A stretch of 64,000 nucleotides of DNA from Octopus vulgaris (taxonomy: Eukaryota). A program made the translations under genes and the position numbers. Where the stretch lies: positions 115,072,001 through 115,136,000 of the forward strand of contig OX597822.1 in NCBI GenBank assembly GCA_951406725.2, given 5' to 3'. The notes beneath the pieces are model-generated. The model searched no databases. It worked only from the letters and a program-made list of their open reading frames with translations, and was not told where the DNA came from. Shown piece by piece: positions 20,584 through 46,325 of the stretch (position 1 is the stretch's first letter; every line of letters begins with the position of its first letter).

Positions 20584-20615
<32 letters not shown>

Positions 20616-20666
20616 GTGTAGGAAGAAATGGAGCTGAACGAAGACTTAACAAAATTCCTTTTTATT

Positions 20667-20752
20667 ATTTTCTACATATGTTTCAAAGGCTGCAAAATCC
20701 CTAATTCGGATTGAATAAGGAGTCCATTTTGCAGCCTTCTCTTCAGGAAAAT
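20667..20752 (-). ncRNA. Mirror-image hammerhead ribozyme in the inverted arm
   Basis: Reverse complement of 20888-20973 with one substitution in the stem II extension. Confidence 0.78.
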
Positions 20753-20887
20753 CCAGGAACTTAATTCTCCAACAAAATGCACAGCAAGCTTTTCGAGGAG
20801 CCCATGGAATAAATTTATTCCATGGGCTCCTCGTGAGCGTTTGTCGAAAAGCTTGCTGTGCATTTTGTTGGAGAATTAAGTTCCTGG

Positions 20888-20973
20888 ATTTTCCTGAAGA
20901 GAAGGCTGCAAAATGGACTCCTTATTCAATCCGAATTAGGGACTTTGCAGCCTTTGAAACATATGTAGAAAAT
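20888..20973 (+). ncRNA. Type-I hammerhead ribozyme, canonical core, predicted GUA cleavage after 20967
   Basis: AUUUUC-CUGAAGA-GAAGGCUGCAAA...UUUGCAGCCUUU-GAAAC-AUAU-GUA-GAAAAU: 6-bp stem I, long stem II and palindromic stem III ACAUAUGU. Confidence 0.8.
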
Positions 20974-21177
20974 AATAAAAAGGAATTTTGTTAAGTCTTC
21001 GTTCAGCTCCATTTCTTCCTACACTAAATATATAAAACTTCAAATTTCCGCACTAAGGCACGGATTTTAGACCCCATGGTCGTAACCTCAACCGTGCTTT
21101 TTCTATTGTGATTTTTGCTACCCAGGTATCGGTTATCATTTGAATAATCCGTAATAAGATAATTCATTTATCTACTT

Positions 21178-21217
<40 letters not shown>

Positions 21218-32969: not shown

Positions 32970-33075
32970 CCCTTATTACAGCCCCTATTTGTTCCATGTA
33001 CATCTCAAGATTTTTACTCACTGTTCCCTGGGCTCCTACAATTATTGGTACTACTACTACCTTTTTCAGCGACCA
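32445..33075 (-). mobile_element. R4/Dong-type 3' end (RLE C-terminus + 3' UTR) split by a (CAT)n run
   Basis: WSLKKVVVVPIIVGAQGTVSKNLEMYMEQIG...TAKILL, then the 3' UTR ending at a TAA-type tail near 32440. Confidence 0.75.
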
Positions 33076-34887
33076 CAACTAATTTGTTGTATTCGGAATT
33101 CACTTAGACATTCCTTTGCCTGTTTTGTTGCTGAGTATGATGCTTTCTTGTTTTCATGTTTTGAGACAGGTTTTAACATCCAGTCCTCAGACTTTTTCAG
33201 GTAGGTGTCTAAGCCAATTGTAGCAACCTTCATTGCTATTGCCAGTTGTAAAAGCCCACGGCCTCCCTCTTTTCTTGGTAGATAAAGTCGATCTATATCT
33301 GCCTTAGGGTGGTGCATTCTATGCATTGTCAACAGTTTTCGTATTTTTCTGTCAAGCTGACATATTTCAGTAATTGACCAGTTTACAATGTTGAAACTGT
33401 AAGTCACGACAGGTATGGCTAAAGCATTGATCGCTTCGATCCTGTTTCTTGCATTCAACTCTGTCTTGAGTATTGCTCTTACTCTACGATAACATTCTCT
33501 CCTGATCCTTTCCTTCATCACTGAATGCCTTATTCTATCCCCTTTCAATTACCCCTAGGTACTTGTAGCTCTCCGCTGGGTCTAACTCTTTTATGACATT
33601 CTGCTGGTCGAGGTAAACGTTAACTGTTTCTGTCATTTTTCCTTTGATAAAGGTAACTTTTGCACACTTATCGAGGCCAAATTGCATTCTGATGTCATCG
33701 CTGAACTGTTTAACAATCGTTAGTAAGCCCTTGAGTTGTTGGTCATTTTTTGCAAAAAGCTTTAAATCATCCATGTAAACGAGATGATTTATATTTTTAT
33801 CCAACATTTTATATCCGTACTGTGCGTCATTGAGCAATTTTGAGAGAGGTTTTAAGGCTAAACAAAAGAGGAGTGGTGACAGTGAGTCACCCTGGAAAAT
33901 GCCACACGAAATTTTTACATCACCAGCATTTAGAGATTCATTGTCACTGTTCAGAGTTAGTGTGGTTCTCCATGATCTCATACTTACAGTGAAAAAGTTT
34001 CGCAGAGTAGGTGCTATCTTATACATTTCCAGGCATTTCATAATCCAGCAATGTGGTAGGCTATCAAAGGCCTTTTTATAGTCTATCCAGGCTATTGATA
34101 AGTTTTTGTGTCGTTTGTGACAATCTTCTAAGATCATCTTATTGATGAGTAGTTGGTCTTTACAGCCGTAGGATCCACGTTTACATCCTTTCTGTTCATT
34201 AGGGAATATGCTGCTGTCTGTTAAAAAACTATTAGTATATTCCGTCAGGATAGATGTTAGCGTTTTATACATAGTTGTTAAGCAGGTTTTGGGTCTAAAG
34301 CTTTTTGGTTCATTTGTTTCTTCACTTTTTGGGAGCAAGAGTGTTAAACTTTTAACAAGCCAAGCAGGCATCCTACTAGGGTGTTGCAAAACATCATTGT
34401 AAAGTTCTGTTAGCAGTTCATGGCTTTCTGGGAAGGCAATCAGCCAGAAGTTAGGAATCTTATCCTTTCCTGGAGACTTCCATTTGCTTGACCTCCTGAG
34501 AGCAGATCTTACATCTTCTACCTTGACACCCTCCCACTTTTATTCCTCTAAGGAGTACAAAGTCCGTAGCTATTCTGTCAATCCAAGGGGCCTTTTCGTT
34601 GTGTTTTTTCTTCTGCCCAAATTTTATTCCAAACACTGTGAACGTCGTCTTTTGATGGTACAGACTTTATAGTAACTGGTGTTTTTCCTATCTTCCTGTA
34701 AAAATTTTTAGGGTTATTTTTGAACATGTTGTTTTTGAAGAATCTAACATGCTTTTCATACCTCGCTATGCGGGCAGCTTTAGCAGATACCTTTTGCTTG
34801 ATGGTTTCTATGGTGGCATCAATATCAAGTATAGTTTTCATACATTTTTTCTTTAATTTTGGGGTTTTTGTAGGTTTGGTAGTCTTG
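33076..34887 (-). mobile_element. R4/Dong-clade non-LTR retrotransposon RT region (frameshifted)
   Basis: ORFs 34578-34967, 33535-34389 and 33066-33548: EQKGCKRGSYGCKDQLLIN, WIDYKKAFDS, GIFQGDSLSPLLF, HLVYMDDLKL, YKYLG and RLYLPRKEGGRGL. Confidence 0.92.
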
Positions 34888-34908
34888 TTGTTATTATTAT
34901 TATTATTA

Positions 34909-36548
34909 TGTTTTTTCCTTCTTTCTTCAAATTTTCTTCCGTTTCTCGCCGAGTGTTTTCCATACACCTAGGGCAGAGAAGTTCATTGTATACATTCCCA
35001 GATTACACACGCAAATTCACAGATAAAATATGTATTTAAAAATTAATAAATAAATAAATTCATGGATGGATGTTGTTTTCACAGTGATAATGCCCTTCTC
35101 AGTACATGAGCCGTTCCAGTTAATACGATTTTTTGCACTTCCTGTACGGATGGTAAGCCTGGAATCATTTTCAAATAGGTTTCAGTACCTTTTTTTATCA
35201 TTCCTAGAGATACAACAATCACTGGTACTGTAGTCGCCTTGAGATGCCACATTCTTTCTATTTCTATTAGCAAGTCTATATATTTACTAATCTTGTCAAA
35301 TTCTTTCGCTGCTCAATCTGGTGGGTATCTACGAGATCAGCAGCGAATTTTTTGCTCTCTTTGAGAATAGAGTGAAGTCTTTTCAGTCTTTTATGTTTTT
35401 CAACGAGTTTTAGCATCCAATCGTTGGTTGCTTTAAGGTATTTGGCCAGTCCGATTGTGGTGGTTTTGTATGTAAGTTCAAGCTGGATCAAACCTCGACC
35501 TCCTTGAGCTCTGGGAAGGTAAAGGCGATCCACGTCTGCCTTTGGATGGTGCATCTTATTACAAGGCAGTAACTTGCGGATTTTTCTGTCAATTTTCATT
35601 ATTTCACTGGTATTCCAGTTAAGAACATTGAAGCTATAAAGAACAACTGGTACTGCTAAGGAATTTATATTATATGCATTCAGCTCAGACTTCAGGACTG
35701 CTCGAACACTTATATAACATTTCTTCTTAACCTTCTCTTTCTAGCGTGCATGCTGCATACCAGAGCCTTCATTTATTCCTAGGTATTTATAGGTTTGTTC
35801 CTGCTCAAGTTCCTTTATTACTGTTTCGACATCTAATTCGATTGAACTAGACTTTACCAATTTCCCTTTCTTAAAAGTGGCTTTGGCACACTTTTCAAGG
35901 CCAAACTCCATCCCGATATCATCACTGAATCCTTTCACAGTATGTAATAATCCTTCAAGCTCTTCATCATCTTTGCCATATAACTTTAAATCATCCATAT
36001 AAAATAGATGGCTTATTTTCCTGTTGTCAATTTTGTAGCCATATCCTGTTCTGTTCAGTTCACTTGAGAGTGGTATTAGTGCTATGCAGAGAATTAGTGG
36101 TGAAAGTGAGTCACCTTGGAAAATTCCACAGTTTATGCTAATGTTGTTTGAGCGCAATACTCCATTAGAATGATATAATTGGAGCTTCGTGTTCCATAGT
36201 GACATATTATACTTTAAAAAATCTGAAATCACAGGAGAAATTTTGAAAATGTCCAGCGATTTCGGAATCCACGAATGTGGTATGCTGTCAAAGGCTTTTT
36301 TATAATCAATCCATGAAGAGCTGAGATTTCTGCGCTTGTTATGGCAGTTCTCAAGGATCATGCGATTAATTAGGAGCTGATCTTTGCATCCGTATGAGCC
36401 TCGTCTGCATCCTTTTTGTTCAGTGGGAAAGAAATTATTCTCTTCCATAAACGTATATCTTTTGTCTACTAGAATAGATGTCAAAATCTTATAGGTTGTA
36501 GATAAACATGTTATAGGCCGGTAGTTTTTGGGTCTTTCGTTTTGTTAT
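34909..36548 (-). mobile_element. R4/Dong-clade element: RT joined directly to the RLE C-terminus and 3' UTR, (TAA)n tail
   Basis: ORFs 35741-36484 (YMDD), 35276-35599 and 35079-35273 (EIERMWHLK...QKIVLTGTAHVLRRALSL). The CCHC region is absent at the ~35310 junction. Confidence 0.9.
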
Positions 36549-43844: not shown

Positions 43845-43935
43845 GTTCAGGTCACTGCTTGGAATTGAACTCGGAATCTTGGGGTTAGTAGCCTGCGCTC
43901 TTAACCACTACGCCATATGCCACTACGCCACAGAA

Positions 43936-43992
43936 ATATAGCGTAATAGTTAAGAGCGCAAGCTACAAACCCCAAGATTCCGAGTTCAACTT
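43936..43992 (+). other. tRNA-like head of the right-hand copy of the hammerhead element
   Basis: tagcgtaatagttaagagcgcaagctacaaaccccaagattccgagttcaa is the inverse of ~43863-43917. Confidence 0.75.
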
Positions 43993-46325
43993 CTGGTTGA
44001 AATATCTAACAGGAATGCACAAAAAGCTGGCTGAAAACTTTAACAGCATGCTAGCAGAGCCAGAGACAATGCCTGAATGGCTCACGAAGGGGAAAACCAT
44101 CTTAATTCCCAAATCAAATGAGACAGCAAAACCAGAAAACTACAGACCAATAACCTGTCTCCCTACAATATACAAGGCACTTACTGCAGTGATATCGCAA
44201 AGGTTGAACAAGCACCTGGACGAAAACAACCTGTTTCCAGAAGAGCAGAAAGGATGCCGCAAAGGCTCATATGGCTGTAAAGATCAACTAATGATTAATA
44301 AAGCCATAACTGAAGACAGCCACAGAAAGAAGAAAGGCCTCAGTATGGCCTGGATCGATTACAAAAAGGCGTTCGATAGCATCCCCCACACATGGATCCT
44401 CGAAACACTAGCCATTAACAAAGTAGCACCAACCGTTATAAAATTCATAGGGCACTCTATGAATAAATGGCAAACCGTGCTACAGCTCCAAACAAAAGAG
44501 GGACTCATGAAAACAAAAGCCATCCCCAGTTGAAGAGGAATATTCCAGGGAGACACTCTCTCTCCACTCCTTTTCTGCTTCGCACTGTCACCTCTATCTG
44601 ATATGCTAAATAGAACTGGATGCGGATATAAATGTTACGGCAAAACGATCAGCCACCTTTTATATATGGATGACCTAAAACTATACGCTGCAAATGACAA
44701 ACAGCTGGAAACACTATTAAAGACAGTTCATGGATTCACCACAGAAATAGAAATGAAATTTGGATTAGAAAAATGCGCCAAAGTAACCATGAAAAGAGGA
44801 AAACTAGTTAAGAGTAACAACATCACACTAGATAAAACCAATGAAATAAAAGAATTAGACCAAAGCCAAACTTACAAATACTTAGGAATCCATGAACTAG
44901 ATAAGACACAACACCCACAAATGAAAGAGAAAATAAAAAAAGAATATTATAGACGAGTTAGATCAATACTAAAAACAGAGCTCAATGCTAAAAACAAGAT
45001 AATAGGTATCAACACTTTAGCTGTCCCAGTTATAAGTTACAGCTACAATATCCTTAACTGGACACTAAATGAACTGACCAAAATAGATAGGAAAACAAGA
45101 AAAATAATGACAGGGTCTAGGATGCATCACCCAAAATCTGACATAGAAAGACTATATATACAACGTATAGAAGGTGGTAGAGGCCTTATACAGCTGGAAA
45201 ACTACTATAAAATAACCACCATAGGACTGCAAAAATATCTACTTCAGAAGGAAGGAAAGTTGATACAAATAGCGGCAAAACACGAGCAAAACAAAAAACT
45301 GTTCTCAGTATTTAAGGAAGCTGACAAATACAAACAAGAAATCATACCACCTAACAAATATGAAGAAGAAGAAGTAGAAAATGAAGAAACAACAAAAGCT
45401 ATAAAACAAATGAAATCCAAACTAAAACTAGAACAGCAACGAACCATGATAAAACGATGGCAAGAAAAGTCCCTTCATAGTAAATACTGGACTAAACTAA
45501 ACGCAAAAGAAATAGACAAAGAAAAATCCCAGCAATGGTTGAGAAGCTCAGGACTCAAAGCAGAGACAGAGGGATTTTTAATTGCAGCACAAGACCAAAG
45601 CCTCCCCACCAGAAATTACCAAAAACATGTAATGAAAAGAAATATTACAAGTAACTGCAGAATATGTGGAGATGGACAAGAAACAATAAATCATATTATC
45701 TCTAGCTGCCCAGTCCTGGCTAAGAAGGAATATATTCACAGACATGACAGAGTTGGAACCTACATACACTGGAAGCTATGCCAACATTATGGAATAACAA
45801 CAGAAAAAAGATGGTATAGGCACACACCAGAAAAGGTCAGAGAAAACGAGAAAGCAACCATACTCTCGGATATGCCGATACACACAGATAGAGAAATTAA
45901 GGCCAACAGACCAGATATAGTTGTCAGAGATCATGAAGAAAACAAATGCTTTCTAATTGATGTATCAATACAGGCAGATGACAACGTGTCTCCAAAAGAA
46001 ATGGAGAAACTCTCAAAATACAAAGACCTGGAAATAGAGGTAACTAGAATGTGGAATCTAAAAACAGAAACAATTCCTATCATAGTAGGTGCATTAGGCA
46101 TGATAAAAAAATATTCAGACAAATACATAACAAAAACACCAGGACTTACAAACACATATAACATACAGAAAATTGCACTACTAGGCACTGCACACATCCT
46201 ACGCAGAACACTTTCCATACAATAACCATCAGAGCATCACAACAAATCACAGCACATACCTAAGGCACACAGAGCTGCGCTCGGTAGTGAAGTGAAAGCA
46301 CGCTATAAAAATAAAACTACTGAAT
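43988..46325 (+). mobile_element. 5'-truncated R4/Dong-clade non-LTR retrotransposon: RT + CCHC knuckle + restriction-like endonuclease, one in-frame stop
   Basis: ORFs 43997-44533 and 44603-46225 are in the same frame. Motifs YRPITCL, WIDYKKAFDS, GIFQGD, LYMDDLKL, CRICGDGQETINHIISSC, RHD, RPDIVV..DVS and EKLSKYKDL. The 3' UTR ends in (TAA)n. Confidence 0.95.

What the first reader, a model, noticed from the sequence alone, without database searches (positions are those of the whole stretch)
20606..21185. 429-bp loop-less fold-back carrying two outward-facing canonical hammerheads
Seen: arms 20606-20796 and 20844-21034 differ at one base. The centre is a perfect 40-bp palindrome (20794-20833, axis AAA|TTT). 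The left arm lacks 13 nt, deleted between TCG microhomologies. Each arm has AUUUUC-CUGAAGA-long stem II-GAAAC-AUAU-GUA-GAAAAU. The forward copy continues ~150 bp further, and (TA)n flanks both sides. Inference: a young Penelope-type insertion made by snap-back (hairpin-primed) synthesis. A transcript from either strand would contain an HHR and could form ~200 bp of dsRNA, a potential ADAR or siRNA substrate. The extended stem II is unusual for minimal pLTR hammerheads.
Basis: partly seen in the sequence, partly recalled or inferred. Interest (0 to 1): 0.75.

Follow-up and report, generated by a model that had tools for sequence, protein, structure and literature searches.

The report
Head-to-head Penelope insertion, two priming sites
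This palindrome is one young, truncated copy of a common Penelope-type jumping gene; about 100 sister copies show that such palindromes cannot all be single fold-backs, and likely arise when both ends of a cut TA repeat copy the same RNA from two fixed start points and the two copies are joined head to head.

Summary
The fold-back is real as described. It is a young, 5'-truncated insertion of an autonomous, endonuclease-bearing Penelope-like element (PLE) with an 899-aa RT + GIY-YIG ORF, sitting in (TA)n. This layout is known, and the scan met it before elsewhere in this genome. The new part is a junction census. Inverted arms end at one site (q221) and forward arms at another (q~370). These two kinds pair almost always (66 of 67; 38 of 38). 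In 36 of 101 junctions the arms share no sequence, so snap-back cannot be the general mechanism. Arms share rare alleles (61 of 75, against 12% between loci) and join by short microhomology. About 40% of arms that reach q0 stop there, the likely RNA 5' end. Here both arms end at q0 and overlap by a self-complementary AT, which explains the loop-less axis. Best reading: two target-primed cDNAs from one RNA source, end-joined. Mirror-symmetric junctions are in excess, so some snap-back may occur. The hammerhead is type I with a covarying long stem II, but read-through RNA would trap it in duplex. The lineage lacks the Cys linker proposed to target (TA)n, yet still inserts there.

The parts
20584..20612 (.). 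Left (TA)n target tract; its last 7 bases are shared with the arm
   Evidence: Sequence
20606..20813 (-). Inverted arm A = family positions q221 to q0/1 (q1 = window 20814), with a 13-nt deletion between 20796 and 20797; inferred cDNA primed from the left end at start site 1
   Evidence: 130 exact q221-(TA)n ends genome-wide
20667..20752 (-). Type I hammerhead in arm A; predicted cut after 20673
   Evidence: Mirror of the + motif
20794..20833 (.). Perfect 40-bp palindrome; both arms end at q0 and share the self-complementary AT at 20813-20814
   Evidence: exact junction mapping a=0, b=0, overlap 2
20813..21184 (+). Forward arm B = q0 to q~371 of the pLTR; inferred cDNA primed from the right end at start site 2
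20888..20973 (+). Type I hammerhead: stem I 20888-20893/20968-20973, core CUGAAGA 20894-20900, stem II 20901-20955 (12 bp plus an 8-bp upper helix), GAAAC, 2-bp stem III with palindromic AUAU loop, predicted cut after 20967
21026..21034 (+). Start site 1 (AAATATATA, q213-221): where inverted arms meet (TA)n
   Evidence: same site in a ~77% identical subfamily
21035..21184 (+). 151-nt 'tail' between the two start sites; in tandem copies it continues into the 5' UTR and ORF
   Evidence: L134, L135, L136; L038
21184..21212 (.). Start site 2 (q369-371) and right (TA)n target tract
   Evidence: Outer ends 359-372, mostly 369-372

Best explanation
This is a 5'-truncated copy of an autonomous Penelope-like retrotransposon whose two arms likely arose as two separate cDNAs, each primed by one end of a cut (TA)n repeat at one of two fixed sites on the element's RNA and then likely joined head to head by microhomology. 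Shown: the family, its ORF, the two fixed outer ends, their near-obligate pairing, mostly independent inner ends, shared alleles, microhomology and the stop cluster at q0. Inferred steps: (1) the GIY-YIG domain cuts both strands of (TA)n; (2) one end primes at q~221 and the other at q~370 on the same RNA or on RNA from one source copy, which leaves the 151-nt tail on one arm only; (3) each cDNA stops independently or runs off the RNA 5' end, here at A(q0), probably the transcription start; (4) the two 3' tails anneal (here AT with AT) and host end-joining fills in; (5) the 13-nt deletion in arm A came by slippage or repair between TCG repeats. The two hammerheads are passengers of the pLTR and would be held in duplex in read-through RNA.
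For: Pairing: among loci anchored at q221-(TA)n, 66 of 67 two-armed copies pair with a q~370 arm. Among 64 unique loci anchored at q~370, all 38 with a detectable inverted partner pair with a q221 arm. No overlap: 27 of 66 and 36 of 101 pooled. An older subfamily repeats this in 11 of 19 two-armed loci of 30 examined (my count). L038 and L040 have 3.2-3.5-kb inverted arms against 1.1-kb forward arms. Solo q221 copies with (TA)n on both sides exist, e.g. L042, L046, L052, L107, L109, L114. Microhomology averages 2.05 nt against 0.72 expected in 63 junctions without insertion; 34 of 97 resolved junctions have insertions, several visibly templated. Arms share minor alleles at 61 of 75 sites, against 531 of 4325 between loci. 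Stop cluster at q-4..+10: 18 of 44 A arms and 7 of 18 B arms that reach it (P 1.5e-13), with no strong hairpin there (z 0.46). Of five loop-less junctions without added bases, four sit on a self-complementary word. In vitro, the anole PLE protein cuts and extends both target strands and starts at two internal sites that bound the tail (PMC11167929).
Against: Mirror-symmetric junctions are in clear excess: 20 of 65 overlapping pairs against 5.6 expected, and 10 of 54 against 3.0 away from q0. Independent stopping does not predict this; it needs shared RNA 5' ends or some snap-back. By my reading 4 of the 20 near-symmetric junctions fit snap-back cleanly and 3 marginally. Allele sharing is also predicted by snap-back or by gene conversion between arms. 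Exceptions to the pairing: one 221+221 locus (L065) and one tail+tail locus in the older subfamily (beside L261). Frangieh et al. saw no strand difference in start-site use. The transcription start at q0 is inferred from DNA only. Where both arms keep shared sequence, A-longer and B-longer loci are about equally common (about 12 and 11, my count), as later deletion would also give.
Confidence: 0.68

Rival explanations
1. Snap-back (self-priming): one cDNA from q~370 folds back at its 3' end and copies itself to q221, where it anneals to the target. It would apply to this locus and to the symmetric class.
For: Excess of symmetric junctions. Arms share alleles. L005, L029, L061 and L117 have a longer forward arm, a loop and microhomology. 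It explains the 221/370 pairing directly. Self-priming was proposed from junction palindromes in rotifer PLEs (PMC3846280).
Against: It cannot give the 36 of 101 non-overlapping pairs, the 59 of 101 with a longer inverted arm, or solo q221 copies without a second step. This locus has no loop; it would need two untemplated T's. Six of the 20 near-symmetric junctions are loop-less and six have the inverted arm longer (my count).
Confidence: 0.17
2. All copies begin as perfect snap-back palindromes, and most then lose their centres asymmetrically because long palindromes are unstable.
For: Long perfect palindromes are deletion-prone (established knowledge, recalled). The window copy has a 13-nt deletion next to its axis. 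Microhomology and insertions at junctions also fit repair.
Against: Asymmetric loci are not older: arm-arm divergence is about 1.0% against about 1.5% in symmetric ones (summed by hand). L040 has 3 differences in 966 bp yet 2.2 kb of asymmetry. About ten loci have arm A intact to q0 while arm B is short, which needs one-sided deletion starting at the tip.
Confidence: 0.12
3. Assembly or chimeric-read artefact at this locus.
For: Inverted repeats trouble assemblies (PMC8557442). No contig spanned this junction.
Against: The arms differ by a substitution and a 13-nt deletion. The inverted arm ends at the family's fixed site. Analogous joints occur in four other DNA runs.
Confidence: 0.03

Closest known systems
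Hydra clade of C-terminal EN+ Penelope-like elements (Craig et al. 2021, PMC8557442; passages read)
   Same: [quoted passage not shown]
   Different: The CxCx5C linker is absent (24 of 24 in-frame copies, against 115 of 120 homologs that have it). The ORF is 899 aa with two N-rich inserts, and the unit is about 3.6 kb rather than under 3 kb. The tail is 151 nt rather than 30-40.
PAc / Poseidon of Anolis carolinensis (Frangieh et al. 2024, PMC11167929; parts 1-2 of 4 read)
   Same: Two internal RT start sites bounding the tail; AT-rich targets; both target strands cut and extended; no sign that hammerhead cleavage defines copy ends.
   Different: PAc sites are 30-40 nt apart, inside the ORF, in an AC-rich stem-loop, non-homologous to the target and used without strand bias in vitro. 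Here they are about 150 nt apart, upstream of the ORF, end in TA-like bases, and are used one per end in nearly every insertion.
Adineta vaga Penelope families (Arkhipova et al. 2013, PMC3846280; passages read)
   Same: Head-to-head inverted pLTRs with junction palindromes of 18-38 bp, an optional tail, an Inr-like site in the pLTR, and N-rich inserts in the ORF.
   Different: That paper reads the palindromes as self-priming on an antisense template. Here the palindromic class is a minority, and 36 of 101 pairs do not overlap at all.
PLE and retrozyme type I hammerheads (Cervera and de la Pena 2014, PMC4209133; parts 1-2 of 4 read)
   Same: Type I topology; G10.1-C/U11.1; 2-bp stem III with a palindromic loop suited to dimer cleavage; enlarged helix II; opposite-strand pairs 100-700 bp apart.
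   Different: Stem II here is 12 bp plus an 8-bp upper helix (55 nt), against 6-8 bp described in the parts read. Stem I is a full 6 bp with a further extension.
L1 twin priming (5' inversions; passages of PMC11702581, and recalled)
   Same: Both target ends prime cDNA on one RNA, and the products are joined with microhomology.
   Different: In L1 the second site is variable and the two pieces hardly overlap. Here both sites are fixed, and the arms overlap in 65 of 101 cases.

Membership tests
EN+ Penelope-like element | Single ORF with RT and GIY-YIG endonuclease | tested here: met
   899-aa ORF in L034 with YRDD and AIY..YIG, R, E, N. Atlas neighbours carry GIY-YIG in 26-50% and RVT_1 in 18% of members. 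Pfam and PDB searches were blank. dN/dS RT 0.06-0.14 (8 pairs), EN 0.08-0.19 (5 of 8 computable). The window copy itself holds no ORF.
EN+ Penelope-like element | pLTRs from partial tandems, inverted 5' copy, tail on one end | tested here: met
   Tandem pLTR-ORF junctions in L134, L135, L136; 101 inverted junctions
EN+ Penelope-like element | Hammerhead motif in the pLTR, sense to the ORF | tested here: met
Hydra clade | DKT and RW(K) motifs | tested here: met
   SDKT is present; RW is present but followed by L or F, not K
Hydra clade | No CCHH; CxxC and CxH flanking E and N | tested here: met
   CALCNSE...VN...CTH
Hydra clade | CxCx5C linker before the endonuclease | tested here: not met
   Absent in 24 of 24 copies readable in frame (26 examined, 2 frameshifted); present in 115 of 120 homologs. 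Filed as Hydra-like, not as a canonical member.
Hydra clade | Insertion into (TA)n | tested here: met
   30 of 30 BLAST-picked loci, not selected on TA, end in (TA)n
Hydra clade | Placement in the RT phylogeny with named Hydra families | not tested
   No named reference sequences came from the tools; homologs are unnamed except one Argonauta hians protein. The paper's supplement was not read.
Penelope/Poseidon, Neptune, Nematis | CCHH motif with two Cys between GIY and YIG | tested here: not met
   Only one Cys there
Type I hammerhead ribozyme | Core C3-U4-G5-A6-N7-G8-A9, G12-A13-A14, A15.1-U16.1, NUH | tested here: met
   Invariant in 7 subfamily representatives; N7 is A or U, triplet GUA or GUC
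Type I hammerhead ribozyme | Stems supported by covariation | tested here: met
   88% of cells paired; 5 of 12 lower stem II pairs change on both sides; slid controls 35-48%. Only 7 related sequences, so modest; the upper helix has no two-sided change.
Type I hammerhead ribozyme | Self-cleavage | not testable with these tools
   No sharp pile-up of copy ends at q155
Non-LTR retrozyme | Non-autonomous head-to-tail monomers, each with a hammerhead | tested here: not met
   The sequence is the pLTR of an ORF-bearing element, and the copies are head-to-head

The most novel reading that the evidence does not exclude
One RNA, two reverse transcriptases: a PLE protein dimer holds a single transcript, cuts (TA)n on both strands, and assigns one fixed start site to each broken end. 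The inverted repeat and the tail are then two footprints of one coordinated double-priming step finished by host microhomology joining. In this lineage (TA)n targeting works without the Cys linker that was proposed to direct it, possibly through TA-like bases at the two RNA start sites.
Probability: 0.4. Interest if true: 0.7.

Novelty: new variant of a known kind. Interest (0 to 1): 0.45.

Why it matters
How PLEs make their inverted-plus-tail insertions is stated as open in Craig et al. 2021 and Frangieh et al. 2024. A young family with more than 100 readable junctions discriminates between the published self-priming idea and two-strand priming. It adds a rule not seen in vitro: one start site per end. 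It also gives a natural test of the linker-targeting hypothesis, because an element under purifying selection inserts into (TA)n without that linker. The single locus is otherwise ordinary transposon debris, unlikely to act as a ribozyme.

Tried and rejected
Rfam: no hammerhead hit, only microsatellite-driven miRNA matches. Pfam and PDB sequence searches of the ORF were blank. Hammerhead cleavage as the source of copy ends: stops are mildly raised over q131-175 (0.07-0.14 per 15 nt, against 0.044), but there is no sharp peak at q155; one solo copy (L059) ends there; not supported. A hairpin as the cause of the q0 stop: rejected. Expression: no RNA holder is on record. Contigs of four runs only guessed to be RNA cover the family but show no joint for the intron I suspected in the tail, and cannot show a start site; uninformative. 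Two different source elements for the two arms: rejected by allele sharing. Retrozyme reading: rejected. Target-site duplication cannot be read inside (TA)n. One search used wrong coordinates and was redone; crashed and were rerun. Literature: 7 searches found no junction census of PLE inversions and no report of a linker-less Hydra-like element. Subscription journals are not searched and no supplements were read; these may hold either.

Full report
Coordinates. q1 = window 20814. Arm A is the inverted copy and arm B the forward copy.

Observation. The genome is 2.8 Gb. The forward arm has 2530 candidate matches, and the 40 scored are 97-100% identical. The only named protein relative is from Argonauta hians, so I infer a cephalopod host.

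What it belongs to. Longer copies continue upstream into a 3' UTR and an ORF. [quoted passage not shown] In L134, L135 and L136 the tail runs straight on into the 5' UTR and start codon. The window sequence is therefore the pLTR of an autonomous element with a unit of about 3.6 kb. RT and endonuclease are under purifying selection between subfamilies. Motifs match the Hydra clade as described by Craig et al.: DKT, RW, no CCHH, CxxC/CxH, (TA)n targets. The clade's CxCx5C linker, present in 115 of 120 homologs, is missing in all 24 in-frame copies of 26 examined, across subfamilies down to about 65% amino-acid identity in that region. I call it Hydra-like. The window's arms differ at 1 of 197 compared bases, so the copy is young.

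Census, set 1. A pattern for q221 followed by (TA)n has 130 exact matches, of which 100 were listed. I analysed 90. Seven were left out as already held or as the same locus, and three were fetched later. One duplicate was dropped, leaving 89. Of these, 67 have an inverted partner: 66 end at q359-372 and one at q221. In 27 of 66, arm B starts downstream of q221 and shares nothing with arm A. In 43 arm A reaches >10 nt further 5', in 11 arm B does, and 12 are within 10 nt. The other 22 have no partner found by BLAST; several have (TA)n on both sides.

Census, set 2. A pattern for the q~370 end gave 359 raw matches, with minus-strand hits partly double-counted. I examined 70 loci, 64 unique. All 38 with a detectable inverted partner pair with a q221 arm, and none with another tail arm. 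The two sets overlap, so they are not independent. Pooled and de-duplicated, including the BLAST-picked loci that favour long B arms, there are 101 junctions: 36 non-overlapping, 59 A-further, 20 symmetric, 22 B-further. An older subfamily, about 77% identical, has 210 matches; in 30 examined, the same two sites are used and 11 of 19 two-armed loci are non-overlapping (my count). One tail+tail pair turned up there beside L261.

Junctions. Of 101, 97 were resolved. The 63 without insertion have a mean microhomology of 2.05 nt, against 0.72 expected; 35 of 63 have 2 nt or more, against 17%. The other 34 carry insertions, some copied from nearby sequence. This pattern resembles polymerase-theta joining (recalled). 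In 40 loci with overlapping arms, the arms share minor alleles at 61 of 75 sites, against 12% between loci, so both arms come from one source.

The q0 stop. 18 of 44 A arms and 7 of 18 B arms that reach q10 stop in q-4..+10, against 4.4% per 15 nt in q11-130. No strong hairpin lies there. The base at q0 is the A of CCATTT, and of TCATTA in the older subfamily, which has TATAAAG 15 or 28 nt upstream and 3 of 10 arms stopping at q0-9. These look like initiator elements (consensus recalled). L119, L222 and L026 have extra A's added where the cDNA ends. I infer an RNA 5' end, probably the transcription start; no RNA data could test it. In the window both arms map to q0 with a 2-nt AT overlap. L011, L223 and L111 are likewise loop-less on self-complementary words; L028 is blunt.

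Against my reading. Symmetric junctions exceed the shuffled expectation (20 of 65 against 5.6; 10 of 54 against 3.0 away from q0). Two enzymes running off one RNA 5' end would explain this, but so would snap-back, which fits L005, L029, L061 and L117 cleanly. Allele sharing does not separate the two. Later deletion of palindrome centres cannot be excluded, although asymmetric loci are no older.

Hammerhead. It is type I with an invariant core in seven subfamily representatives, and 5 of 12 lower stem II pairs change on both sides. Stem III is 2 bp with a palindromic loop; two copies can pair through it (-9.0 kcal/mol), as in dimer-cleaving PLE motifs. In a single arm the hammerhead stem I costs 2.4 kcal/mol over the minimum; in the whole fold-back it costs about 113 kcal/mol on either strand. 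Copy ends do not pile up at the cut site. This agrees with Frangieh et al., who found cleavage dispensable for insertion in vitro.

Comparison with print. The inverted copy plus tail, junction palindromes, opposite-strand hammerhead pairs and enlarged helix II are all described (PMC8557442 passages; PMC3846280 passages; PMC4209133 parts 1-2 of 4). Two start sites and two-strand extension are shown in vitro (PMC11167929 parts 1-2 of 4). I also saw part 1 of 5 of bioRxiv 10.64898/2026.07.22.740005, passages of PMC13282606 (recently active Penelope families in Octopus vulgaris) and passages of PMC11702581. Seven searches found no junction census and no linker-less Hydra-like family; no supplements were read. 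Two earlier scan notes on other pieces of this genome reached the same 'ordinary PLE footprint' verdict.

Verdict. A real and ordinary locus in a family that is informative about mechanism. New variant of a known kind; interest 0.45.

Noticed in passing
L034:5377-8073 and copies L031-L040, L232-L248: The ORF lacks the CxCx5C linker found in 115 of 120 homologs; a conserved Cys-free stretch stands in its place, yet the family inserts in (TA)n.
   Followed up: yes
L034 ORF, about residues 440-500 and 590-720: Two N-rich in-frame inserts in the C-terminal half of the ORF, with an expandable (AAT)n run; the second has dN/dS 0.34-0.73. They resemble the N-rich inserts of rotifer Penelopes; the top homologs P0001-P0003 and P0017 have inserts at one or both places.
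   Followed up: partly
L136:2158-2161 (q34-37), run X7: One contig (depth 6) of a run guessed to be RNA reads four consecutive A as G on the sense strand; none of 81 genomic copies has this. A weak hint of A-to-I editing in the family, not tied to this locus.
   Followed up: partly
window 21126 to the AG after the tail in tandem copies: Possible ~70-nt intron (CAG|GTATCG ... TACAG|) spanning start site 2; no spliced joint was seen in contigs.
   Followed up: partly
L013:474-581, L027:1363-1468, L042:2075-2184, L079:145-252, L083:7468-7575, L127:5130-5239, L170:908-1016, L173:2223-2329, L177:237-342: Other, sequence-unrelated motifs with hammerhead core words and a 40-70-nt stem II region lie in the flanks, so long stem II forms may be common in this genome. 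Not folded or tested.
   Followed up: no
L222, L119, L026, L044 junctions: A-runs or repeated short words are added where cDNA reaches q0-1, like terminal stutter by a telomerase-related RT or templated repair.
   Followed up: no
L261 (second element, about 260-980 bases from the match): A tail+tail inverted pair in the older subfamily, both arms ending near q0; an exception to the pairing rule.
   Followed up: partly
L058, L079, L074/L075, L052: Whole insertions are duplicated in tandem, inverted around (TA)n, or within a 52-kb segmental repeat.
   Followed up: no
window 33066-36544 (-) and 43892-46225 (+): Broken reverse-transcriptase ORFs of an unrelated LINE type; family not determined.
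   Followed up: no
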